NCBI GenBank assembly: GCA_035607015.1
Contig: DATNDF010000505.1
Span: 1 to 46,388, forward strand
Direction: 5' to 3'
Origin: Candidatus Angelobacter sp.
Lineage (GTDB): Bacteria > Verrucomicrobiota > Verrucomicrobiia > Limisphaerales > AV2
DNA length: 46,388 nt
The notes under the pieces were generated by a model, which was not told where the DNA came from, searched no databases, and saw only the letters and a list, made by a program, of their open reading frames with translations. The position numbers and the translations under genes are program-made. Below, one piece after another: positions 29,303 to 39,690 of this stretch. The first letter of the stretch is position 1. The number at the start of each line of letters is the position of its first letter.

Positions 29303-30436
29303 ATGAGCAACAAGCCTAATGGCACACCGGACTACGGTTCCGGTTATTTGGAAATATCGGAGAAGGGCTTCGGTTTCCTCCGTTCCTCGGACAACCACTT
29401 TCAACCCAAACCGACAGACATTTTCGTCACGCCGGACACGATCAAGAAAAACTTCCTGCGCGAAGGTTCGCAGGTCGCCGGTCCGCTTCAACCGCCGCAT
29501 CGGGGAACCAGCCCGCAACTGCGCGAAGTGGAAAAAGTCAATGGCATGGCGTTTTCCGAATATACCAAGGCCGTGCGGTTCGAGAACCTGACGACCATTG
29601 ATCCGACGGAAAAGTTCCAGCTCGAAACGGCGCCTGATCTGGTTGAAACCCGCATTATTGACCTGGTCACACCCCTCGGCAAAGGCACGCGCGGATTGAT
29701 CGTGGCGCCACCGCGGACGGGCAAGACGACCATTCTCAAACAGATCGCGAATGCCGTCACCGCGAACCATCCGGAGGTACACGCAATGGTGCTGCTCATC
29801 GATGAGCGGCCGGAGGAGGTCACGGATTTCCAGCGCTCGGTCAAAGCCGAGGTCGTGGCGTCATCGAACGACCAGGATCTGGAAACACACGTGCGCCTGT
29901 CGCGGTTCATGATCGAACGCTGCCGTCGCATGGTGGAGTCGGGCAAGGACGTGTTTGTGCTGCTGGATTCGCTCACTCGCGTGGCGCGCGCCTATAACAG
30001 CGTGCACGGCGGGAGCGGCCGCACGATGACCGGCGGCGTTGACGCTCGCGCCCTGGAAATTCCCCGGAAAATGTTCGCGTCGGCGCGCAAGATTGAAGGC
30101 GGCGGATCGCTGACCATCCTGGCAACGGCCCTCGTGGATACAGGCTCTCGCATGGACGAACTGATTTTTCAAGAGTTCAAAGGAACCGGCAACATGGAAT
30201 TGATCCTCGATCGCAAGCTTTCCGACCGCCGGCTGTTTCCGGCCATTGACATTCCCAAAAGCGGCACGCGCAAGGAGGAAAAGCTTTTTCCACCGAAACA
30301 TATCGAGGCCATTCGTAAACTGCGTCGAACGATGGTGGACTTGAATCCCGTGGAAGCGATGGAGACGCTCATCGCCGCGCTGAAAAAGCACAAGACGAAT
30401 GAGGAACTGCTGGCGAAACTCGACAAAAGTTCCTGA
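29303..30436 (+). CDS. rho: transcription termination factor Rho (short form lacking the N-terminal helix bundle)
   Basis: GYLEISEKGFGFLRS (start of the OB/RNA-binding domain), Walker A APPRTGKTTILK, LLIDERPEEV, and the C-terminal PAIDIPKSGTRKEE. An in-frame TAA at 29288-29290 blocks any upstream extension. Confidence 0.95.
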   Translation: MSNKPNGTPDYGSGYLEISEKGFGFLRSSDNHFQPKPTDIFVTPDTIKKNFLREGSQVAGPLQPPHRGTSPQLREVEKVNGMAFSEYTKAVRFENLTTIDPTEKFQLETAPDLVETRIIDLVTPLGKGTRGLIVAPPRTGKTTILKQIANAVTANHPEVHAMVLLIDERPEEVTDFQRSVKAEVVASSNDQDLETHVRLSRFMIERCRRMVESGKDVFVLLDSLTRVARAYNSVHGGSGRTMTGGVDARALEIPRKMFASARKIEGGGSLTILATALVDTGSRMDELIFQEFKGTGNMELILDRKLSDRRLFPAIDIPKSGTRKEEKLFPPKHIEAIRKLRRTMVDLNPVEAMETLIAALKKHKTNEELLAKLDKSS

Positions 30437-30531
30437 TTCGCGCGCGGGGCGACCACTCGCCGCGCCCAACGGGGTCGGCCGCGGAGGATCGGTGGTTTAC
30501 TTTCAGAAAGGATTGTAGTTCCCTCGTTCCG

Positions 30532-31539
30532 GTGAAGGTGCCCGACAGGCCGAAGGCAAGATCGCTGTGTTCCCGACCCCCGCTTGAGCGGATGCTGCGG
30601 ATTCACCAGGCGGTTCAGTCCGGCGGATATCCCAACGCCACTGCTCTCGCGGGTGAACTTGAAGTCAGCACCAAATCGATTTATCGCGACATCGAGTTCA
30701 TGCGTGACCGCCTGGAGTTGCCGGTTGAATTCGACAGCGTGCGGAATGGGTTCCATTACACGGAGGAGGTCAGCGGCTTTCCCACCCTTCAGATCACCGA
30801 GGGGGAACTTTTCGCCTTGCTCGTCGCTGAAAAGGCCTTGCAGCAGTATCGCGGCACGACCTTCGAGAAGCCGCTCGTCAGCGCCTTCAAGAAAATGGCC
30901 GCGTCCCTGCCTGACACGGTGTCGTTGAACCTTGCCGACTGGGAGCAGACGATTTCCTTCCGCACAAGCGCGGAGCCGGTCTTGGACTTGAAAATCTTCG
31001 ATACTCTTGCCAAGGCGACAGCCAATCGCAAACAACTCGAGCTGACCTACCGCAAGCCCGGGCGAAAGGAAACCGAGCCGCGCGTGGTTGACCCGTATCA
31101 CCTGGCCAATATCAATGGCGAGTGGTTTCTTTTCGCCTACTGCCATCTGCGAAAGGACATCCGCACGTTTGTTCCGGCTCGGATTCTGGAGGCCACCGTC
31201 ACCGGCAAGTCGTTCGTCCGTCCGCAGAAGTTTTCGTTGGAGAAGCGGTTGCGCGACAGTTTCGGAGTTGTCACCGGCGGTGATGAGTTTGACGTCGTGG
31301 TCCGTTTCGACGAACTGGCTGCCGATTACATCCGCGAAAAGCGGTGGCATCCTTCCCAACGGTTGGTCGAGTTGGAGGACGGCGGCGTTGAGTTGCGTTT
31401 GAGGCTTTCCAGTCTCGCGGAAATTCAACGGTGGATTCTGAGTTGGGGCGGCCGTGCCGTCGCGGTGGCTCCACGCGAACTGGCGGAGTCGGTCACCAGC
31501 GCCGCGCGCGCAATTGTCGAGCGCGCGGAGCGGGCCTGA
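30532..31539 (+). CDS. HTH-WYL-domain transcriptional regulator (PafB/PafC-like)
   Basis: RPPLERMLRIHQAVQSGGYPNATALAGELEVSTKSIYRDIEFMRDRLELPVEFD is the HTH. The central WYL-type domain is ...VVDPYHLANINGEWFLFAYCH. GTG start; the alternative ATG at 30592 would cut the conserved RPPLERM. Confidence 0.85.
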   Translation: MKVPDRPKARSLCSRPPLERMLRIHQAVQSGGYPNATALAGELEVSTKSIYRDIEFMRDRLELPVEFDSVRNGFHYTEEVSGFPTLQITEGELFALLVAEKALQQYRGTTFEKPLVSAFKKMAASLPDTVSLNLADWEQTISFRTSAEPVLDLKIFDTLAKATANRKQLELTYRKPGRKETEPRVVDPYHLANINGEWFLFAYCHLRKDIRTFVPARILEATVTGKSFVRPQKFSLEKRLRDSFGVVTGGDEFDVVVRFDELAADYIREKRWHPSQRLVELEDGGVELRLRLSSLAEIQRWILSWGGRAVAVAPRELAESVTSAARAIVERAERA

Positions 31540-31598
31540 TCCGACGCAAGACCGGAGTACGCACGCGCCCGCGATTCGCGCAAAAAATGCTTGTCTGC

Positions 31599-31628
31599 AT
31601 TTGCAAATCGAACGAAGCAGCGTAATAT
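31599..31628 (+). promoter_or_regulatory. candidate promoter with overlapping 10-bp palindrome in front of the proteasomal ATPase gene
   Basis: TTGCAA (31601-31606), a 16-nt spacer, then TAATAT (31623-31628). The perfect palindrome ATTTGCAAAT (31599-31608) overlaps the -35. The -10 ends 7 nt before the A of the ATG at 31635, and there is no Shine-Dalgarno. Confidence 0.35.
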
Positions 31629-31634
31629 CATGGC

Positions 31635-33344
31635 ATGGCTGAGCCAAAGAAGAAGTCCGTGCCGCCATCTCCAGCCGGCAAATCCCCGGCTGACGGCCCG
31701 GAGGTTTCTTCACCACTCGGCGGTCTGCTTCCGCGTGAGGAGTTGGATCGGCTTTCCGCCCTGCAGTTGACTGATCTTATCGTTGGCAAACTGCCGCCGC
31801 GCCACCCGGCCATCCTCGACATGGTCTATTTGCGCGAACGCATCGCATCCATTGAAGAAACAAACGAGGAGGCGCGCCAGGCGATCGAGAAGATGGACGC
31901 GATCATCGAGAAGCTGCGCTCTCCTGCTTTTCGCGTCGGCACGCTGCTGACTCTGATTCAACCGGACCAGGCCCACGTCTGCGTTGGTGGCACGGATTAC
32001 GTCTGCCGTGTCGATCCACAGGTTCCGCTGTCCAGCCTGCAGGTCGGCCAACGCGTGTTGCTGAATGAGGCGTTTGCAGTGGTGCAGGGGCTTGGTTTCG
32101 ACCGCAACGGCCCGATTGTCCGCATTGACGAATTGCTTTCCGACGGCCGTTTGCGCATTGGTCAGGAATCCGGCCTGATGCCGCTCGTTCTTCAACGCTC
32201 CGCCTTGTTGAGCAAGGAAAAGCTCAAGCCGGGCATGGACATCCGGCTTGATGTGAACCAACGGGTGGCGCTCGAGGTCATTGGGATTGGAAAGCGGGTT
32301 GAACGCTCGCTTGAGAACGTGACCGAGCTGCCGTGGTCGTCCATCGGGGGCCAGGAAGAGGCGGTGCAGGCGATTCGCGACACGATTGAACTGCCGTTCC
32401 TGCATCGGGACCTGTTCAAGCGATTCGAGCACACAGTGCCGAAGGGCTTCCTGCTCTATGGGCCGCCGGGTTGTGGCAAGACGCTGCTCGGGAAGGCGAC
32501 CGCCTACAATTTGCGACAGCAAATAAAGACGCAAAGCGGCGTGGACCGGCCGGAATTCTTCCTCCATGTCAAAGGCCCGGAAATCCTGAACATGTGGGTG
32601 GGCGAATCTGAACGGCAGGTGCGCGACCTGTTCACTCAATGCCGCGAACGCGCGAACGACGGGGCGCTGGCGTTTCTGTTCATCGACGAGGCGGAATCCA
32701 TTCTCGGCACCCGCCACGGCGGACGCTTTCACACGATGGCGAGCACACTTGTCCCCATGTTCTGCACGGAGATGGACGGACTTGAGCCGCTGCAAAACGT
32801 GGTCGTGATCCTGGCCTCGAACCGGGCTGATTTGATTGATCCCGCCATTCTTCGGCCCGGCCGCATCGACCGGAAGATCAAGGTCAAACGCCCGGATATC
32901 GCCGGAGCGCAGAGCATCTACGAGATTTACCTTCGCGACTCGCTCCCACTGGCGGAGCCGAAGATCGAATTGGCCCGGGCCGCCGTTCAGGTGCATTACG
33001 CGAAAGCGGAGGAGAACCAGTTTCTGGAGGTGGTTTACCGCAGCGGGAAGCGGGACATTCTGTACCGCGGAGATCTGGCGAGTGGCGCGATCATTGCCGC
33101 CGTGGTGGAGAGGGCCAAGAGCCTGGCGATCAGACGTTCGATAGACACCAGGCAGGAGACCCAGTTGACTCGCGAAGACCTGCTGGCCGCCCTGCGGCGG
33201 GAATACATCGAGAACGATCTGTTCCCCTCGACCGACATCACTGAAGACTGGCTGAAACTGACGGATTTTGACCCGGACAACGTGATCAAACTCGGTCCCA
33301 TCCGCCCACGCAAAGCGGACACCGTTGGAAACGCCGTGGTATGA
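31635..33344 (+). CDS. proteasome-associated AAA+ ATPase (Mpa/ARC-like)
   Basis: N-terminal coiled coil (RERIASIEETNEEARQAIEKMDAIIEKL) followed by an OB-like region. A single AAA module has Walker A GPPGCGKTLLGKA and Walker B FLFIDEAES. It sits directly upstream of the dop-like, modifier and prcBA genes. Confidence 0.9.
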   Translation: MAEPKKKSVPPSPAGKSPADGPEVSSPLGGLLPREELDRLSALQLTDLIVGKLPPRHPAILDMVYLRERIASIEETNEEARQAIEKMDAIIEKLRSPAFRVGTLLTLIQPDQAHVCVGGTDYVCRVDPQVPLSSLQVGQRVLLNEAFAVVQGLGFDRNGPIVRIDELLSDGRLRIGQESGLMPLVLQRSALLSKEKLKPGMDIRLDVNQRVALEVIGIGKRVERSLENVTELPWSSIGGQEEAVQAIRDTIELPFLHRDLFKRFEHTVPKGFLLYGPPGCGKTLLGKATAYNLRQQIKTQSGVDRPEFFLHVKGPEILNMWVGESERQVRDLFTQCRERANDGALAFLFIDEAESILGTRHGGRFHTMASTLVPMFCTEMDGLEPLQNVVVILASNRADLIDPAILRPGRIDRKIKVKRPDIAGAQSIYEIYLRDSLPLAEPKIELARAAVQVHYAKAEENQFLEVVYRSGKRDILYRGDLASGAIIAAVVERAKSLAIRRSIDTRQETQLTREDLLAALRREYIENDLFPSTDITEDWLKLTDFDPDNVIKLGPIRPRKADTVGNAVV

Positions 33345-33509
33345 CGACGTGGAACGTTCGTCTCACCAATGAATCACCGATTGGACAAAGGCGGACACAG
33401 TGATCGGGGTTGACCCAACGGCAGGATCGGGAAAGGGATTCTTTTCCAGGTTGTAAAAAATTTTCCATAACGGGTCGCGCAATCCGTCTGTCTTAATGCG
33501 TAACAATAC

Positions 33510-35018
33510 ATGATCGCGCCCACCATCCAGTTTGGGTTGGAGACGGAAATCGGCATCTTCAGCGACGCGCCGGGCGAGGTTGATGTCGTTGCCGAGTCGA
33601 TCGCGCTCGTGCGTAGCGCCACCGAGCCTGGGGTCTGGATGTGCTGGGACTACGAGTGCGAGGATCCGCACGTGGACATGCGCGGTTTTCGCGTCCACGA
33701 ACTGCGCCAGGACACCGACGAGGCAGACTATTACGCCCAGGACGCGGCGCGCGAACTGAGCTTCGTGGAAATCAAAAGCGATCTCGTGCTCGGCAACGGG
33801 GCGCGCTTTTACAACGACCACGCCCATCCCGAATACTGCACCCCGGAATGCCGCACCCTCGATGAACTGGTCGCGCACGACCGCGCCGGAGAGCGCATCC
33901 TGATGGCCTGCGCGCATCATCTGACTCAACAACGCGGCGTCGCGGTCAGGCTTTACAAGAACAACACGGATTTTTGCGGCCACAGCTACGGTTGCCACGA
34001 GAATTATCTGCTGCCCCGTTCGCTGGCGTGGGAAACGCTGGCGCAGGGAATCCAGGCTTTTTTGGTGACGCGTCAGATTTTTGCCGGGGCGGGCAAGTTC
34101 GCCGTGGAAACCGAGGATAAATTCCTCTCCGCCGGCTTCCAGATTTCGCAGCGCAGTGACTTTTTCTGCGAATTGCAGAGCGTTGATACGATGCAGCGGC
34201 GGCCGCTTATCAACACGCGCGATGAACCGCACGCGAACCCCAAAAAGTTTCGGCGGTTCCATGTCATTCTGGGGGACGCGAACATGTCGCCGTTCGCGAC
34301 CCGGTTGAAGGTTGGCGCGACCGCCCTGGTTTTGGAGGCGCTGGTGTTGGATCCCAGGAGGATTTATCCCGTACTCGCCGATCCCCTGAAGGCACTGACG
34401 AAGATTTCCCGCGATGAGAAGTTTCGTTGGCCGGTGATGCTCGATGGAGGGCGGGCCTCCACGGGCCTGGCGGTCCAGCGGGCCTATCTGGCGGCGGTGC
34501 GCGAGGTCTGTGATCTGACGGTTGCCGCAAAGGCGTCGCTGGTGGCTGATTGGGAAAAGGTGTTGACCGACTTGGAAACCGATCCCATGCGTTGTCACGA
34601 CCGGCTTGATTGGGTGGCAAAGCTCGCGTTGGTGCGGCGTTTTCAAGCGGCGCAAAAACTGCCCGACGGTGACCCGTGGTTGCAGAGTCTCGACCTTGAA
34701 TATCACCGGCTGGACCTGGCGGAAGGGCTGTATTACGGCCTCGAACAATCGGGCGCGATTCTGGGAGCGCCCGATGAGGCAACCGTACGGCGCGCCGTTA
34801 CGCATCCACCGACGACCCGCGCGACCGTGCGGGGAAAGTGCATTCAGAAATTCGCGTCGGCTGTGACGGCGGCGCAATGGGACCACATAACGTTGCAAGG
34901 CAAGGACGGTTCCTTTAAGATTTCGCTCCTCGATTTGTTCACACCTGACGACGTGTTGCGTTGCAGTCGGGCGATTGACGCGGCGCGTTCGCCGGACGAT
35001 TTGCGAATCTTGTCATAA
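33510..35018 (+). CDS. Pup-ligase-family enzyme, Dop-like by position and size (depupylase/deamidase homolog)
   Basis: FGLETEIG, GARFYNDHAHPEYCTPEC, GCHENYL, QRRPLINTRDEPHA, RFHVILGDANM. It is 502 aa and lies immediately upstream of the modifier gene, as dop does in Mycobacterium. Confidence 0.85.
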   Translation: MIAPTIQFGLETEIGIFSDAPGEVDVVAESIALVRSATEPGVWMCWDYECEDPHVDMRGFRVHELRQDTDEADYYAQDAARELSFVEIKSDLVLGNGARFYNDHAHPEYCTPECRTLDELVAHDRAGERILMACAHHLTQQRGVAVRLYKNNTDFCGHSYGCHENYLLPRSLAWETLAQGIQAFLVTRQIFAGAGKFAVETEDKFLSAGFQISQRSDFFCELQSVDTMQRRPLINTRDEPHANPKKFRRFHVILGDANMSPFATRLKVGATALVLEALVLDPRRIYPVLADPLKALTKISRDEKFRWPVMLDGGRASTGLAVQRAYLAAVREVCDLTVAAKASLVADWEKVLTDLETDPMRCHDRLDWVAKLALVRRFQAAQKLPDGDPWLQSLDLEYHRLDLAEGLYYGLEQSGAILGAPDEATVRRAVTHPPTTRATVRGKCIQKFASAVTAAQWDHITLQGKDGSFKISLLDLFTPDDVLRCSRAIDAARSPDDLRILS

Positions 35019-35040
35019 CGTGTCACAATAACCGCAAGAT

Positions 35041-35214
35041 ATGCCTGACCAATCACAAAAATCCCGTCCAGTGGCGCCGGCCGGTCCGGGCGGAGGAGGC
35101 GACGGTCCGAGCGCGCCGAAAGTGGACAAACCCAACGTGGATGATCTGCTCAAACGGATGCGCAAAGTGGATCCGGACCAGGCGCGCCGCTACCGCCAAC
35201 GCACCGGCCAATGA
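35041..35214 (+). CDS. ubiquitin-like small modifier, UBact/Pup-type (57 aa)
   Basis: Missing from the ORF track (under 60 aa). Translation MPDQSQKSRPVAPAGPGGGGDGPSAPKVDKPNVDDLLKRMRKVDPDQARRYRQRTGQ. The N-terminal half is low-complexity and predicted disordered, the C-terminal half is helical and charged, and the last residue is Gln. Its TGA overlaps the prcB ATG (ATGA at 35211-35214). It occupies the pup position between the dop-like gene and prcB. Confidence 0.85.
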   Translation: MPDQSQKSRPVAPAGPGGGGDGPSAPKVDKPNVDDLLKRMRKVDPDQARRYRQRTGQ

Positions 35215-35984
35215 GCGATCCTTCTCCGATCGCGGGCGATTTCCTTTCCCTGCTCGCGCTTCACCGTGTTTCGCCCTTGCGCGCCGCCGTGTCGCCCGAC
35301 GCGCCCGTCCAGACACAGGCGACCACCGTCTTTGCGTTCCACTTCGCAGATGGCGTGCTGATGGCCGGCGACCGCCGCGCGACCGCGGGTAATGTCATCG
35401 TCACAGACCGCGTTGACAAAGTTCTCGAACTGGATGCGACGTCGGTCCTGGCGATCGCCGGAGTACCCGCAACCGCGTTTGAAATGGCGCGGGTGCTGGA
35501 AACTTCGTTTGAATACTACCGGCGCAGCCAGTTGCAGTCGCTCAGCCTGCCGGCCAAGGTCCGCGCCCTCGCGCGGTTATTGCGCGAAAATCTACCATTG
35601 ACCATGCAGGGCGTCGGCGTCGTGATGCCGCTGTTCGCGAGCGTGGATCTGACGGTGACGCCACCCGAGCCACAGATTTACTTTTACGACCCGCTCGGGG
35701 CGCAGTTCCACGCCGTCGGCTATGCCGCATCCGGTTCGGGATCGGGGACGATCCGCAGCATCCTGAGTTTCCAGGACAGGTATGGCGAACCACGGCCCGC
35801 GCGGATGAACCTTCAACAGGCGGTGCAGTTCGCACTGCGTCTGCTGATGACTGCGTCCGAATTTGACTCGGCCACCGGCGGTGTAAATCCGGAAGCGCAC
35901 ACTTTTGCGACCATCAAGATCCTGCGCGGGTCCGGCGTTGAAGATGTGACTGCCGAACAGCAGTCCGAACTGCTGAAATCATGA
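35211..35984 (+). CDS. prcB: 20S proteasome beta subunit with propeptide
   Basis: ...VQTQATTVFAFHFADGVLMAGDRRATAGNVI carries the active-site Thr after a ~37-aa propeptide. GSGS motif: YAASGSGSG. Confidence 0.92.
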   Translation: MSDPSPIAGDFLSLLALHRVSPLRAAVSPDAPVQTQATTVFAFHFADGVLMAGDRRATAGNVIVTDRVDKVLELDATSVLAIAGVPATAFEMARVLETSFEYYRRSQLQSLSLPAKVRALARLLRENLPLTMQGVGVVMPLFASVDLTVTPPEPQIYFYDPLGAQFHAVGYAASGSGSGTIRSILSFQDRYGEPRPARMNLQQAVQFALRLLMTASEFDSATGGVNPEAHTFATIKILRGSGVEDVTAEQQSELLKS

Positions 35985-36721
35985 CGGAAGAACCATATCG
36001 TTGGCTGGAGGCAATCGGGAATCGGCGCGAGTACGTGCGCGAACAGCTGAAGGGCGGATCGCCTGTTTTTGCGGCCTCGCTGCCGGACGGCATCCTGCTG
36101 CTCGGTGTCGGCACGGGCCATTCGAAAGTGTTTGAGCTGTTTGACCGCCATGGGCTCGCTGGCCTGGGGCATCCCGCAGACATTGAAAAAATCCGGCAAG
36201 CCGCCATTGATGCCGCGCATCTGGAAGCGTTCAATCGCGCCCCCGAGGACGTGAGCCTGCGCCGGCTGATCAGCTTCGGGTTAAGCCCGCAACTTAAAAC
36301 GAATTTCGAGCAAATATTCAGCGCCCCGTTTCTGGTGGAACTCCTGCTGGTGGAGGCCGGCACTGAGCCGGGCCAGGATCTGATTGCACGACTGCATTTC
36401 GACGGTGCGTTTCAACTTCACAGCAAAGGTGTCGTCGTGGCCGCGAGCCAGCCCGAGCCCGAAGCGGCTGCGCAAACGTGGGCGAACCAGGTGCTGGCGG
36501 GAAAATCAGACCGCGGCGAGGTTGCCGAAATCCTGCTTCAGGTGTGGTGGTGCCTGATTGAGAACAAACCCTTTAATGACGGGATTCCCGCCGAAGCCGA
36601 GCGACGGGACGGCTGGCGGAAGGCCGTTAATGGACGGACGGCGGAGATTGGCTGGCTGGGGAGAAAGGGTGGCCGCCGTGCGCGGTACGAAGCAGTGACC
36701 GTCGCCCAGCTCGGCTTATGA
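35981..36721 (+). CDS. prcA: 20S proteasome alpha subunit
   Basis: 246 aa with a proteasome-fold pattern (SPVFAASLPDGILLLGV...FELFDRHGLAGLG). ATGA overlaps with prcB (35981-35984) and with the next gene (36718-36721). Confidence 0.85.
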   Translation: MTEEPYRWLEAIGNRREYVREQLKGGSPVFAASLPDGILLLGVGTGHSKVFELFDRHGLAGLGHPADIEKIRQAAIDAAHLEAFNRAPEDVSLRRLISFGLSPQLKTNFEQIFSAPFLVELLLVEAGTEPGQDLIARLHFDGAFQLHSKGVVVAASQPEPEAAAQTWANQVLAGKSDRGEVAEILLQVWWCLIENKPFNDGIPAEAERRDGWRKAVNGRTAEIGWLGRKGGRRARYEAVTVAQLGL

Positions 36722-38112
36722 ACCGGATCGTCGGCCTGGAAACTGAATATGGTTGTTTGACCAGCGACCCCTCCGGGCCGCCCAGCGCCGTCGGCCGGGT
36801 TCGCAACTGGATTTTTGAGAAGAACCGCTTCGGCCTTGCGGACATGCACCAGCGCGACTGGGATGAACCGGCTGGGAATGGCGGTTTTCTTTTCAACGGC
36901 GGAAGGTCCTATGTGGACATGGGCCACCTGGAGTATTGCACACCGGAATGTCTTTCATTGATTGACCTGCTGCGCTACGATCGCGCCGGGGACGCCATTC
37001 TGCTGCACGCGCTCAAAGAAATGCACCTTGCGGAGCAGGTCAGTTTCATTCGCAACAACGTCGATCATTACTCCGGAGCCACTTTTGGCTGCCACGAGAA
37101 TTATCTCGTTCGGCGCACCGCGCCACTCTCTGAAAACAACGTGCTGGCGTTGCTGGCGTTTTTGACGCTGCGGCTGCTCTTCGCCGGATCGGGCCGGGTG
37201 GGTTCGACGCCGGGGGCGGAGTTGCGCGGCGATTTGTTGCGACACGGCGCTGACAGCCATTTTCAGATCAGCCAGCGCGCGGATTACATCAACAACGACC
37301 TGTTCGAGTGGGTGCAATTCAACCGCGCCATCATCAACACGCGCGACGAACCCCTGGCCGACGCCAGAAAGTACCGCCGCCTGCACCTGCTTCACGGGGA
37401 TACGAATGTTTTGCCGACATCTCTCCTGCTCAAGGTGGGCACGACAGCGCTCGTGCTTGACCTGCTGGAACTGGACCAGCTGCCGAAAATCGTTCTGGCC
37501 GACGCGGTGATGACCTTTCGCAATTTGTCCCACCAACCCGACGGTCCCTGGCTGGTGCCTCTGACGGACGGCCGTTGCGCGAGCGCGGTAGAGCTTCTTT
37601 TTAAATTCCTCGACGCGTCGCGGAGGGAGTTTTTCGGCCGCGACAACGAGACTGACGTTGTCCTCCGGGTCTGGGAGGAAGTCCTTTCCGCGCTGGCGAC
37701 GCGTCCGGATATTCTGGTCGGCAAGGTTGACTGGATCACAAAGCGGTGGCTGTTCCGCCAGTTTATGGAGCGAGAGAACATCAGTTGGAGCGATCCGTGG
37801 CTGAAGGCGCAGGACCTCGAGTTTCATCACATCGACCCCGCGCGCAATTTGGGGATCGCCCTGGCCCAGACGCCTTCCGCCTGGGACCCTCCGTCGGCCG
37901 AAATAGCCGACGCCATGCGCTCGGCGCCCGGTAACACGCGCGCGCAGGCGCGTTCCAGGATCATGCGGATGCTCAAAAACCAGCACATCCGCTACTTCGT
38001 GGATTGGGAAGTGATCGACGCGGAGGGAGTCAACTCGTTGAACCTGCTCAATCCATTCGATGCGTCGCCTCCGGAAGCAGACAGCTGGGCGCGCCAGCTG
38101 AACCTTGTTTGA
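36718..38112 (+). CDS. Pup-ligase-family enzyme, PafA-like by position and size (modifier ligase homolog)
   Basis: MNRIVGLETEYGC, GGRSYVDMGHLEYCTPEC, GCHENYL, NRAIINTRDEPLA, RLHLLHGDTNV. 464 aa, compared with 502 aa for the paralog at 33510. Confidence 0.88.
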   Translation: MNRIVGLETEYGCLTSDPSGPPSAVGRVRNWIFEKNRFGLADMHQRDWDEPAGNGGFLFNGGRSYVDMGHLEYCTPECLSLIDLLRYDRAGDAILLHALKEMHLAEQVSFIRNNVDHYSGATFGCHENYLVRRTAPLSENNVLALLAFLTLRLLFAGSGRVGSTPGAELRGDLLRHGADSHFQISQRADYINNDLFEWVQFNRAIINTRDEPLADARKYRRLHLLHGDTNVLPTSLLLKVGTTALVLDLLELDQLPKIVLADAVMTFRNLSHQPDGPWLVPLTDGRCASAVELLFKFLDASRREFFGRDNETDVVLRVWEEVLSALATRPDILVGKVDWITKRWLFRQFMERENISWSDPWLKAQDLEFHHIDPARNLGIALAQTPSAWDPPSAEIADAMRSAPGNTRAQARSRIMRMLKNQHIRYFVDWEVIDAEGVNSLNLLNPFDASPPEADSWARQLNLV

Positions 38113-38115
38113 CCT

Positions 38116-38610
38116 TCAGCGCAGCAACTCCGGTCGCGGAACGGTCGACCGTTTGGTCTCATCATCTGCCTGGTGCCTGTGCTGGCGCTTCAAACCTGAG
38201 GCCGCAGGACGGCGCCCAACCGGCGGTTCCTTTTCCGTGATGTAGCCGCGCAAAAACTTTGGCTTGTCCGGGCGGCCGGCTCGACGGTAATCACTCCAAA
38301 GGGAATCGGCGACGACCGAATGCGGCAGCCCGGATTCTGTCGTCAAAAACTCAAACAGCCACTCCATCAGACGCGGCAGCGCAATGCCGGACTTGCGTCC
38401 GGCCCGCGCGAAGAGCCAGTCGCTCCACCGCATAAACGCCGCGAACGGTGACGGTGTCCCGCTCCAAATCAGCGGCGTGGTCTCCACAAAATTGCCGCTG
38501 TTGCCCACGAGATCCCAATAGCGGGCGAAGCGGCGCACCCGTTGCATGTCGACGAAGCTCACAAGTTTGTTCTGCAGGATTTCGTACGGCGGGTCGGGAT
38601 TGTAGATCAT
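38116..38610 (-). CDS. DUF4080-like C-terminal module of a B12-binding radical SAM protein (separated from the catalytic part by an in-frame TGA)
   Basis: MIYNPDPPYEILQNKLVSFVDMQRVRRFARYWDLVGNSGNF. It is in the same reading frame as 38614-39690, with only TGA-GGA between the two ORFs. Confidence 0.7.
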   Translation of the reverse strand: MIYNPDPPYEILQNKLVSFVDMQRVRRFARYWDLVGNSGNFVETTPLIWSGTPSPFAAFMRWSDWLFARAGRKSGIALPRLMEWLFEFLTTESGLPHSVVADSLWSDYRRAGRPDKPKFLRGYITEKEPPVGRRPAASGLKRQHRHQADDETKRSTVPRPELLR

Positions 38611-38613
38611 TCC

Positions 38614-39690
38614 TCATTCAGCGTCGTGGCGAATGATCGGCGTTCCGCGCAACCGTTTGAGAATGCCCACTTGAATCTCCTGGGGACGGAGCGCGATCAG
38701 CCGGTCGAACCCGGAGGCGAAGCTCTCAAGCGATTCTCCGGGAAGGCCGGCGATCAGGTCCGTGTGGACATGGACGCCGGTTTGTGAACGGAGAAACCGA
38801 AGGTTGTCGGCGAGTTTGGCATAATCCTGCCGACGGCTGATGAGCCGGCTGACCCCGGCATTGAACGTCTGAATGCCGATCTCAAACTGCAGGGCGCCTG
38901 CCGGGAATTGTGCGATGAGATGGCGCAATGCGTCCGGCAGACGATCGGGGATCATTTCAAAGTGTACGAACAAACCCGGTCGATAACGCTCGTAGAAGAA
39001 CTGGAGTATTGCTTTGCTGACGTCCAGGTTCAGGTTGAATGTGCGATCCACAAACTTGAATTGTCGGACTCCGCGACCGAGCAGGCGTTCCATCGCTTCA
39101 AGAAAAGCGGGCAGGGGAAACTGCCGCACGGGAACGTTGAGTGACGACAGGCAAAACTCGCAGGTGAACGGACAACCGCGCGATGCCTCCACATAAATGA
39201 CACGATGCGCCACGTCCTCTTCCGTGTAGAGGTCGTAAGGCAGCACCAGTTCGCTCAAACCGGGACGTTCGGCGGCGATGATTTTATCCGCAGGGCGGCT
39301 CCCGGAAAGGATTTTGCGGCAAGCTTCGGCGAACTTCCGGTCTGCTTCGCCCGTGATGACATAATCCGCGAGGCGCGCGATTTCCTGATTCTCGACCTCG
39401 AAACTGACTTCCGGCCCACCAATGACAACAACAACATCGGGCCGCAATCGTTTGAGTGCCGCGACGGTTTCGGTCGTCTGCGCCACGTTCCAGATGTAAA
39501 CGCCGAGGCCGATGATTTTTGGCTGGCGGGCCAGCAGCACCTCCACCACATCGAGAGGCCGCTGCGTGATATCGAACTCGACGAGGCAGGTTTGTGTCCT
39601 CAGTTCGCCCAGATTGGCGAGCAGGTAACGGAGACCGAAGGCACTGTGGACATATTTCGCGTTCAGCGTGGCAAGGATGATCTCAGCCAT
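38614..39690 (-). CDS. B12-binding-domain radical SAM protein (N-terminal and catalytic part)
   Basis: [23 protein letters not shown] (cobalamin-binding-like Rossmann N-terminus). [14 protein letters not shown] is the CxxxCxxC radical-SAM cluster motif. Confidence 0.88.

What the first reader, a model, noticed from the sequence alone, without database searches (positions are those of the whole stretch)
35041..35214. Unlisted 57-aa ORF is the modifier gene, with a UBact-like ...YRQRTGQ C-terminus instead of Pup GGQ
The supplied ORF track skips this ORF because it is shorter than 60 aa.

Seen in the sequence: the ATG is at 35041 and the TGA at 35212-35214 overlaps the prcB ATG. The product is MPDQSQKSRPVAPAGPGGGGDGPSAPKVDKPNVDDLLKRMRKVDPDQARRYRQRTGQ. 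The N-terminal half is Pro/Gly/Ala-rich and likely disordered. The C-terminal half is charged and helical.

It sits exactly where pup sits in actinobacteria. From memory, an R-[T/S]-G-[E/Q] ending is the hallmark of the UBact family reported from Nitrospirae, Verrucomicrobia and some other Gram-negative phyla, whereas Pup ends GGQ or GGE.

Inference: a terminal Gln means a deamidation step to Glu is needed before ligation to substrate lysines. That fits the presence of two ligase-family paralogs.
Basis: partly seen in the sequence, partly recalled or inferred. Interest (0 to 1): 0.85.

Follow-up and report, generated by a model that had tools for sequence, protein, structure and literature searches.

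The report
Ordinary UBact protein-tag gene

Summary
The ORF at 35041-35214 (+) exists exactly as described: 57 aa, ending YRQRTGQ, with its TGA overlapping the ATG of the proteasome beta-subunit gene. It matches the curated UBact models far above their cut-offs: Pfam PF20513 at 81.6 bits (cut-off 27.8) and NCBIfam NF033388 at 82.7 bits (cut-off 35). More than 1000 homologues exist, and the closest are 91-95% identical. Several are already named "ubiquitin-like protein UBact" in Verrucomicrobia MAGs.

In 45 related verrucomicrobial loci the same small gene lies between a Dop-like gene and prcB. Nucleotide diversity by codon position is 0.15/0.09/0.52, so the protein is under purifying selection. 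Across the family the C-terminus is R-[T/S]-G-[Q/E].

The flanking genes are:
- a proteasome AAA ATPase;
- a clear Dop-type paralogue, with the Dop-loop and the D-H-A-H motif;
- prcB with an intact Thr1/Asp17/Lys33 triad;
- a divergent prcA;
- a second paralogue that lacks the Dop-loop.

Deamidation of the terminal Gln, ligation to lysines and proteasomal delivery are inferred from the Pup system. I found no experimental test of them for UBact.

Verdict: observation confirmed, interpretation supported, already known, low interest.

The parts
35041..35214 (+). UBact gene. The product is a 57-aa ubiquitin-like modifier ending RTGQ. Residues 1-32 are Pro/Gly-rich and unstructured. Helices are predicted at 33-42 and 45-55.
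   Evidence: Sequence and translation. Pfam PF20513 81.6 bits and NCBIfam NF033388 82.7 bits. 1033 homologues. Conserved synteny. Codon-position diversity 0.145/0.094/0.519. AF2 model.
33510..35018 (+). Dop-type paralogue of 502 aa, the predicted UBact deamidase and de-conjugase.
   Evidence: Pfam Pup_ligase 473.6 bits. NCBIfam Dop 401.6 bits against PafA 324.3 bits. Full-length match to the Acidothermus Dop structure 4b0r (315 bits), including the Dop-loop region, whereas PafA matches only from residue 89. The motifs G-L-E-T-E and D-H-A-H-P-E-Y-C-T-P agree with the Dop-specific positions in Table 1 of PMC7947786.
36718..38112 (+). Second Pup_ligase-family paralogue of 464 aa, without the Dop-loop. 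It is the presumed UBact ligase (PafA-like). This assignment is inferred.
   Evidence: Pfam Pup_ligase 371.2 bits. NCBIfam Dop 272.2 bits (partial match) against PafA 264.6 bits (full-length match). PDB scores are 210.3 bits to Dop and 209.4 bits to PafA, and the protein is collinear with PafA. Signature residues are mixed. It is 34% identical to the first paralogue.
31635..33344 (+). Mpa/ARC-like proteasome AAA ATPase of 569 aa, with a predicted coiled-coil stretch, two OB domains and an AAA module. Its C-terminus is ...GNAVV.
   Evidence: Pfam Prot_ATP_ID_OB_N, Prot_ATP_ID_OB_C and AAA. NCBIfam pup_AAA 428 bits, below the cut-off of 504.75. Sequence. C-termini of orthologues.
35211..35984 (+). 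Proteasome beta subunit PrcB of 257 aa, with a propeptide. The catalytic residues Thr38 (Thr1), Asp54 (Asp17) and Lys70 (Lys33) are present.
   Evidence: Pfam Proteasome 83.7 bits. NCBIfam 20S_bact_beta 144.9 bits. Residues read from the translation.
35981..36721 (+). Divergent proteasome alpha subunit PrcA of 246 aa. Its start overlaps the prcB stop and its stop overlaps the start of the next gene.
   Evidence: No Pfam hit. NCBIfam 20S_bact_alpha 50.5 bits, below the cut-off of 139.05. Position conserved in related loci.
30532..31539 (+). HTH-WYL-WCX regulator with a PafB/PafC-like architecture, upstream of the ATPase gene.
   Evidence: Pfam WYL, WCX and HTH_11. Conserved upstream of the operon in at least 16 of the related loci.

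Best explanation
The ORF encodes UBact, the Pup-like small protein modifier of the proteasome operon found in some Gram-negative phyla. Here the host is a verrucomicrobial genome of the Limisphaerales/Pedosphaera type.

Proposed mechanism, by homology with the actinobacterial Pup-proteasome system:
1. The 57-aa protein is largely disordered.
2. Its C-terminal Gln57 is deamidated to Glu by the adjacent Dop-type enzyme (33510-35018).
3. The gamma-carboxylate of that Glu is activated with ATP and joined to lysine side chains of target proteins by the second Pup_ligase-family paralogue (36718-38112).
4. The two C-terminal helices are recognised by the coiled-coil region of the AAA ATPase (31635-33344).
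5. The ATPase threads the disordered N-terminus and feeds the substrate into the 20S proteasome (35211-36721).
6. The Dop-type enzyme can also remove the tag.

Shown here: family membership, translation-level selection, conserved operon context, intact catalytic motifs in the enzymes, and Q/E alternation at the last residue.

Inferred here: deamidation, ligation, ATPase recognition and degradation.
For: - Profile matches lie far above the curated cut-offs.
- There are 1033 homologues. The best 120 all end YRQRTGQ (104) or YRQRTGE (16), and NCBI names several of them UBact in Verrucomicrobia.
- The family-wide C-terminus is R[TS]G[QE] in 102 of 132 cluster representatives.
- The gene order atp-dop-UBact-prcB-prcA-pafA is identical in 45 loci, and the ATGA overlap with prcB is mostly retained.
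- Codon-position diversity is 0.145/0.094/0.519. For the last 30 codons it is 0.085/0.045/0.468.
- The first paralogue has the Dop-loop and the Dop-specific H95/A96/P103 equivalents.
- Both paralogues keep the GhExE motif and the catalytic Asp.
- PrcB keeps Thr1/Asp17/Lys33.
- AF2 predicts a disordered N-terminal half followed by two short helices. This matches the bihelical core plus extended tail described for Pup-like proteins (PMC2588565).
- The requirement for Pup-Gln deamidation by Dop before ligation is established for Pup (PMC8223512).
Against: - No experimental demonstration of UBact conjugation was found in the searchable literature.
- The second paralogue cannot be assigned to PafA by the residues that discriminate actinobacterial PafA from Dop. 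Its alpha-loop matches neither, and it carries Dop-type V63/P74/Y188 equivalents.
- The ATPase lacks the GQYL/HbYX docking motif.
- prcA is very divergent.
- The UBact helical region is basic (net +5), whereas that of Pup is acidic (net -10). Recognition details therefore cannot simply be copied from Pup.
- All enzyme NCBIfam scores are below the equivalog cut-offs.
Confidence: 0.85

Rival explanations
1. It is simply a divergent Pup orthologue. On this reading UBact and Pup are one family, and the distinction is only one of naming, with an identical mechanism.
For: - Iyer, Burroughs and Aravind (PMC2588565) already listed verrucomicrobial and nitrospiral small proteins with a C-terminal G[EQ] as Pup orthologues.
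- The gene occupies the same position as pup.
- hhalign aligns the UBact profile collinearly with Mtb Pup over the last 26 columns: DDLL...(R)(A/R)Y.Q..GQ.
Against: - The Pfam Pup model does not hit even at E<=10.
- phmmer finds no Pup chain in the PDB.
- The hhalign probability is only 1.2%, with E 0.045 for a single comparison.
- The motif is RTGQ rather than GGQ.
- The charge of the binding region is inverted, +5 against -10.
- Pfam and NCBIfam curate UBact as a separate family.
Confidence: 0.1
2. UBact is a real protein but is not covalently conjugated. It would act non-covalently, for example as an adaptor, regulator or assembly factor for the ATPase or proteasome. The second paralogue would then be a second hydrolase or a regulator rather than a ligase.
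For: - The second paralogue has no PafA-type alpha-loop signature and scores equally against Dop and PafA.
- No experimental evidence of UBact conjugates was found.
- About 22 related genomes carry ATPase and Dop-like genes with no UBact, proteasome or second paralogue nearby.
Against: - The invariant Gly followed by a terminal Gln or Glu, with Q/E alternation confined to the last residue, is what a gamma-carboxylate ligation substrate requires.
- The second paralogue keeps GhExE and the catalytic Asp, lacks the Dop-loop, and has PafA-type Phe54, Gly66 and Asp439 equivalents.
- UBact is strictly linked to both paralogues in 45 loci.
Confidence: 0.04
3. The ORF is a chance open frame in a GC-rich spacer between the Dop-like gene and prcB and is not translated.
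For: Short ORFs are abundant in this GC-rich sequence: 148 ORFs of at least 40 aa in 16 kb. No obvious Shine-Dalgarno sequence precedes the ATG.
Against: - Profile E-values are about 1e-23.
- More than 1000 homologues exist.
- Codon-position diversity shows strong purifying selection in this frame.
- The start (MPDQ) and the stop are conserved in 45 loci, while the in-frame residues upstream of the ATG are not.
Confidence: 0.01

Closest known systems
UBact (Pfam PF20513; NCBIfam NF033388), described by Lehmann, Udasin, Livneh and Ciechanover 2017, BBRC 483:946-950. The reference is taken from the reference lists seen; the paper itself is not held.
   Same: - The ORF scores above both curated cut-offs.
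- It is 57 aa long, with a disordered Pro/Gly-rich N-terminus and a helical, basic C-terminal half.
- It ends R-T-G-Q.
- It lies between a Dop homologue and prcB, in an operon with Mpa, PrcA and PafA homologues.
- The host phylum is Verrucomicrobia.
- The closest database members are 91-95% identical and are already named UBact.
   Different: Nothing of substance. This exact sequence was not among the listed hits, the best of which is 95% identical. It is an ordinary orthologue.
Pup, the prokaryotic ubiquitin-like protein of Actinobacteria (Pfam PF05639)
   Same: - Similar size and intrinsic disorder.
- A C-terminal helical binding region followed by a short tail ending in Gly and a terminal Gln or Glu.
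- The same gene position, dop-pup-prcB-prcA.
- The same partner enzyme families: Dop, PafA, Mpa/ARC and the 20S proteasome.
- The need to deamidate a terminal Gln, which is established for Pup.
   Different: - There is no match to the Pup profile.
- The ending is RTGQ rather than GGQ.
- The binding region has net charge +5, against -10 in Mtb Pup.
- The partner ATPase ends GNAVV instead of GQYL.
- The presumed ligase lacks the PafA alpha-loop signature.
- Conjugation has been shown experimentally for Pup, but I found no such evidence for UBact.

Membership tests
UBact (PF20513 / NF033388) | Score above the curated family cut-offs | tested here: met
   Pfam 81.6 bits against 27.8, E 3.3e-23. 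NCBIfam equivalog 82.7 bits against 35, E 1.6e-23, covering residues 6-57 of the protein and positions 2-54 of the 54-position model.
UBact (PF20513 / NF033388) | C-terminal R-[T/S]-G-[E/Q] as the last four residues | tested here: met
   The window protein ends RTGQ. Family-wide counts among cluster representatives are RTGQ 58, RTGE 26, RSGE 10 and RSGQ 8. All of the 120 closest hits end YRQRTG[QE].
UBact (PF20513 / NF033388) | Small protein (about 50-70 aa) with a disordered N-terminus and a helical C-terminal region | tested here: met
   The protein is 57 aa. AF2 gives coil for residues 1-32 and helices at 33-42 and 45-55, with mean pLDDT 71.9.
UBact (PF20513 / NF033388) | Encoded in an operon with Mpa-, Dop-, PrcB-, PrcA- and PafA-like genes | tested here: met
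   Searches identify the window genes. The same order is found in 45 related loci.
UBact (PF20513 / NF033388) | Occurs in Gram-negative phyla such as Verrucomicrobia and Nitrospirae | tested here: met
   Most of the 68 loci retrieved with the adjacent Dop-like protein are titled Verrucomicrobiota MAGs (Limisphaerales, Pedosphaera). The best is 89% identical. A few carry other bin labels, such as Haliangiales or Saccharimonadales.
UBact (PF20513 / NF033388) | Covalent conjugation to substrate lysines through the C-terminal Glu | not testable with these tools
   This needs mass spectrometry or an in vitro assay. No experimental report was found in the library.
Pup (PF05639) | Match to the Pup profile | tested here: not met
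   No Pup hit at E<=10. As a control, the Mtb Pup sequence that I supplied from memory scores 79.7 bits on PF05639.
Pup (PF05639) | C-terminal G-G-[Q/E] | tested here: not met
   The ending is T-G-Q. Thr or Ser occupies that position in 102 of 132 family representatives.
Pup (PF05639) | Detectable sequence relationship to Pup | tested here: inconclusive
   hhalign of the UBact alignment against Mtb Pup gives E 0.045 and probability 1.2%, with 26 collinear columns at the C-terminus. phmmer against the PDB finds no Pup chain.
Dop (TIGR03688), for the paralogue at 33510-35018 | Dop-loop insertion of about 40 aa and the Dop-specific residues around the catalytic Asp (D-H-A, no insertion, S/T-P) | tested here: met
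   The full-length alignment to 4b0r includes the loop region. The motif is Y-N-D-H-A-H-P-E-Y-C-T-P. The positions compared come from Table 1 of PMC7947786.
Dop (TIGR03688), for the paralogue at 33510-35018 | NCBIfam equivalog cut-off | tested here: not met
   401.6 bits against a cut-off of 492.3. The protein still scores better on Dop than on PafA (324.3 bits).
PafA (TIGR03686), for the paralogue at 36718-38112 | Absence of the Dop-loop and full-length collinearity with PafA | tested here: met
   The PafA model is matched over positions 2-451 of 457. Dop is matched only from model position 81. The PDB alignments agree.
PafA (TIGR03686), for the paralogue at 36718-38112 | PafA-specific residues: L-D-V-G-S next to the catalytic Asp, A-T-A, the alpha-loop H-x-W-E-G-x-S-S-A-x-x-R-S, and Asp439 | tested here: inconclusive
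   The Phe54, Gly66 and Asp439 equivalents are PafA-like. The Val63, Pro74 and Tyr188 equivalents are Dop-like. None of the nine alpha-loop positions matches PafA.
PafA (TIGR03686), for the paralogue at 36718-38112 | NCBIfam equivalog cut-off | tested here: not met
   264.6 bits against a cut-off of 551.3.

The most novel reading that the evidence does not exclude
The verrucomicrobial UBact system may not be a simple copy of pupylation. Four features differ from the Pup system:
- the tag's binding region is basic where that of Pup is acidic;
- the ATPase carries a conserved G-x-G/A-[IV]-[IV] C-terminus instead of the GQYL/HbYX docking motif;
- the alpha subunit is highly divergent;
- the presumed ligase has an alpha-loop unlike that of either PafA or Dop.

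Recognition, docking or even the chemistry of the second paralogue could therefore differ from the actinobacterial paradigm. These would be properties of the whole family, not of this window.
Probability: 0.2. Interest if true: 0.45.

Novelty: already known. Interest (0 to 1): 0.15.

Why it matters
It matters little as a discovery. The gene is a routine member of a family that has been published and curated since 2017, and NCBI's pipeline names its near-identical orthologues automatically.

The result has three modest uses:
- It confirms that ORF tracks with a 60-aa floor miss this functionally central gene of the operon.
- It documents, with data, the purifying selection on the gene and the family's R[TS]G[QE] terminus.
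- It flags that UBact biochemistry is still inferred from Pup. The open points are deamidation, ligation and docking of an ATPase that lacks the GQYL motif.

Tried and rejected
- **Pfam Pup profile at E<=10.** No hit.
- **phmmer of UBact against PDB sequences.** Only low-complexity noise with E>3, so no solved relative and no Pup hit.
- **hhalign of the UBact alignment against Mtb Pup.** Collinear but not significant. I therefore do not claim demonstrated homology to Pup.
- **A second UBact copy in the window.** None. The next best hit has E 0.12.
- **Promoter and terminator scan of 30400-38700.** Counts were at or below the shuffled expectation, so it was uninformative.
- **The original UBact paper.** I tried to read it, but it is not held. 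Details of that paper come from my own knowledge and from the title as cited elsewhere.
- **Relaxed HMM and motif search for a hidden UBact.** I ran this on the roughly 22 related loci that have only ATPase and Dop-like genes. Nothing was found.
- **Assigning the second paralogue to PafA by discriminating residues.** The signal was mixed, so this is left as inconclusive.
- **The chance-ORF rival.** Considered and rejected.
- **Presence of Dop in loci whose UBact ends in Glu.** This is not independent evidence, because the loci were retrieved with the Dop-like protein as the query.

Full report
**Observation**

The ATG is at 35041 and the product is the 57-aa protein MPDQSQKSRPVAPAGPGGGGDGPSAPKVDKPNVDDLLKRMRKVDPDQARRYRQRTGQ. 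The TGA at 35212-35214 shares the tetranucleotide ATGA with the ATG (35211) of the next ORF. The stop-to-stop frame opens only three codons upstream, so the start is unambiguous.

An ORF of this size is not in itself remarkable in this GC-rich DNA. One search lists 148 ORFs of at least 40 aa in the surrounding 16 kb. The case therefore rests on homology and conservation.

**Identity**

The protein matches the curated UBact models far above their thresholds. Pfam PF20513 scores 81.6 bits against a gathering score of 27.8 (E 3.3e-23). The NCBIfam equivalog NF033388 'ubiquitin-like protein UBact' scores 82.7 bits against 35 (E 1.6e-23). The Pfam Pup model does not hit even at E<=10.

A search of 5.8 billion proteins gives 1033 homologues. 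The best 120 are 74-95% identical, and all of them end YRQRTGQ (104) or YRQRTGE (16). Several are named 'ubiquitin-like protein UBact' by NCBI in Verrucomicrobia MAGs.

A search of 50%-identity cluster representatives finds only 136 clusters. Of the 132 new representative sequences, 102 end RTGQ (58), RTGE (26), RSGE (10) or RSGQ (8). The rest look like read-through or truncated gene calls.

**Context**

The window operon on the + strand contains, in order:
- an HTH-WYL-WCX regulator (30532-31539);
- a proteasome AAA ATPase with two OB domains (31635-33344);
- a Pup_ligase-family protein of 502 aa (33510-35018);
- UBact (35041-35214);
- PrcB (35211-35984);
- a divergent PrcA (35981-36721);
- a second Pup_ligase-family protein of 464 aa (36718-38112).

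The last four genes overlap by 4 nt each.

The same order, with the same gene lengths, is seen on metagenomic contigs that carry a 91%-identical UBact. A scan of one genome per species with the Dop-like protein returned 68 loci. Most are titled Verrucomicrobiota MAGs (Limisphaerales, Pedosphaera), and a few carry other bin labels. The best is 89% identical.

Counting the three metagenomic contigs as well, 45 of 71 loci carry UBact directly after the Dop-like gene, followed by prcB-prcA and the second paralogue. This is the dop-pup-prcB-prcA order of actinobacteria (PMC8223512).

**Selection**

I aligned 44 distinct UBact genes by codon. Nucleotide diversity is 0.145, 0.094 and 0.519 at codon positions 1, 2 and 3. 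For the last 30 codons it is 0.085, 0.045 and 0.468.

The MPDQ start is conserved, while the in-frame residues upstream of it are not. The CAATGA or GAATGA junction with prcB is retained in most loci. The region is a translated gene under purifying selection, not a spacer.

**Structure**

AF2 on a 45-sequence alignment gives no secondary structure for residues 1-32 and two helices at 33-42 and 45-55, with mean pLDDT 72. This matches the 'bihelical unit plus extended tail' predicted for Pup-like proteins by Iyer et al. (PMC2588565).

**The two paralogues**

The upstream paralogue is clearly Dop-type:
- It aligns full-length to Acidothermus Dop (4b0r, 315 bits), including the Dop-loop region. 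PafA aligns only from residue 89 (208 bits).
- It carries G-L-E-T-E and Y-N-D-H-A-H-P-E-Y-C-T-P. These match the Dop-specific His95, Ala96 and Pro103 and the absence of the PafA insertion, as listed in Table 1 of Hecht et al. (PMC7947786).

The downstream paralogue is less clear:
- It lacks the Dop-loop and is collinear with PafA over its full length.
- It has PafA-type equivalents of Phe54, Gly66 and Asp439.
- It has Dop-type equivalents of Val63, Pro74 and Tyr188.
- Its alpha-loop matches neither enzyme.
- It scores equally against Dop and PafA structures (210.3 against 209.4 bits).

The two paralogues are 34% identical. All NCBIfam scores are below the equivalog cut-offs. Naming the first paralogue a Dop-type deamidase/de-conjugase is therefore well supported by sequence. 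Naming the second the ligase is an inference from architecture, synteny and necessity.

**Mechanism**

This section is inferred from the Pup system. Pup that ends in Gln must be deamidated by Dop before PafA can ligate it (PMC8223512). Pup's C-terminal half binds the Mpa coiled coil, and its disordered N-terminus is threaded into the ATPase pore (PMC3511204).

By analogy, UBact-Gln57 would be deamidated by the Dop-type enzyme. The second paralogue would ligate it through its gamma-carboxylate to substrate lysines. The ATPase would recognise it, and the 20S particle would degrade the substrate. The beta subunit of that particle retains Thr1, Asp17 and Lys33. Restriction of Q/E variation to the last residue fits this chemistry.

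Several things do not transfer automatically from Pup:
- The last 31 residues of UBact have net charge +5. The family mean is +4.9 (n=222, range +2 to +7). Mtb Pup has -10. The Pup sequence was supplied from my memory and validated as Pup by Pfam at 79.7 bits.
- The ATPase ends GNAVV, and its verrucomicrobial orthologues end G-x-G/A-[IV]-[IV], instead of GQYL.
- prcA is too divergent for the Pfam Proteasome model.

I found no experimental paper on UBact conjugation in the library. The original description (Lehmann et al. 2017, BBRC 483:946) is not held.

**Relation to Pup**

hhalign of the UBact alignment against Mtb Pup aligns the last 26 columns collinearly, NVDDLLKRMRKVDPDQ----ARRYRQRTGQ against ETDDLLDEIDDVLEENAEDFVRAYVQKGGQ. 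The E-value is 0.045 and the probability 1.2%. A common origin is plausible, and it was assumed by Iyer et al. in 2008, but this test does not demonstrate it. I file the ORF as UBact. It works like Pup but is not a member of the Pup profile family.

**Verdict**

The caveat is that the enzymology is inferred and the ligase assignment is weaker than implied.

The thing itself is already known. The family, its motif, its operon and its host phylum were published in 2017 and foreshadowed in 2008. Near-identical orthologues are auto-annotated as UBact. Interest is low, at about 0.15.

The only modestly novel thread is that the verrucomicrobial UBact machinery differs from the Pup paradigm in charge, in the ATPase C-terminus and in the alpha-loop of the second paralogue. 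That is a property of the family, not of this window.

Noticed in passing
window 38614-38616 (- strand), within 38116-39690: An in-frame TGA replaces a Trp codon in the B12-binding radical-SAM gene downstream of the operon. The window reads HDAE*GMIY, whereas the orthologue in L001 reads HDAEWQMVY in an uninterrupted 526-aa ORF. This is a nonsense mutation (pseudogene) or a sequencing error.
   Followed up: partly
window 33330-33344 (C-terminus of the ATPase gene 31635-33344): The proteasome ATPase ends ...GNAVV. More than 50 verrucomicrobial orthologues end G-x-G/A-[IV]-[IV]. None has the penultimate Tyr of the GQYL/HbYX motif that Mpa uses to dock on the 20S particle, so docking may differ.
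   Followed up: partly
L018, L022-L024, L026-L028, L031-L033, L035, L039, L042-L046, L048, L049, L062, L066, L068: About 22 related verrucomicrobial loci have the ATPase and a Dop-like gene (about 72% identical to the window's). They have no UBact, prcB, prcA or second paralogue within 6 kb, even with a relaxed HMM search. The operon is either split in these genomes or the system is reduced.
   Followed up: partly
window 35981-36721: The proteasome alpha subunit is unusually divergent. It has no Pfam Proteasome hit, and it scores only 50.5 bits on NCBIfam 20S_bact_alpha against a cut-off of 139.
   Followed up: no
window 36718-38112: The second Pup_ligase paralogue mixes PafA-type and Dop-type discriminating residues and has an alpha-loop unlike either (YINNDLFEWVQFN). 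Its role as the ligase is inferred, not shown.
   Followed up: partly
window 29303-31539: A short Rho-like protein (Rho_RNA_bind plus an ATPase domain, 377 aa) and a single HTH-WYL-WCX regulator with a PafB/PafC-like architecture lie upstream of the ATPase gene. Both are conserved there in at least 16 of the related loci.
   Followed up: no
P0004, P0016, P0026, P0033, P0121 and other database entries: Many public gene calls for UBact carry spurious N-terminal extensions (70-126 aa) or read through the stop into prcB. This small gene is therefore often mis-called in metagenome annotations.
   Followed up: no
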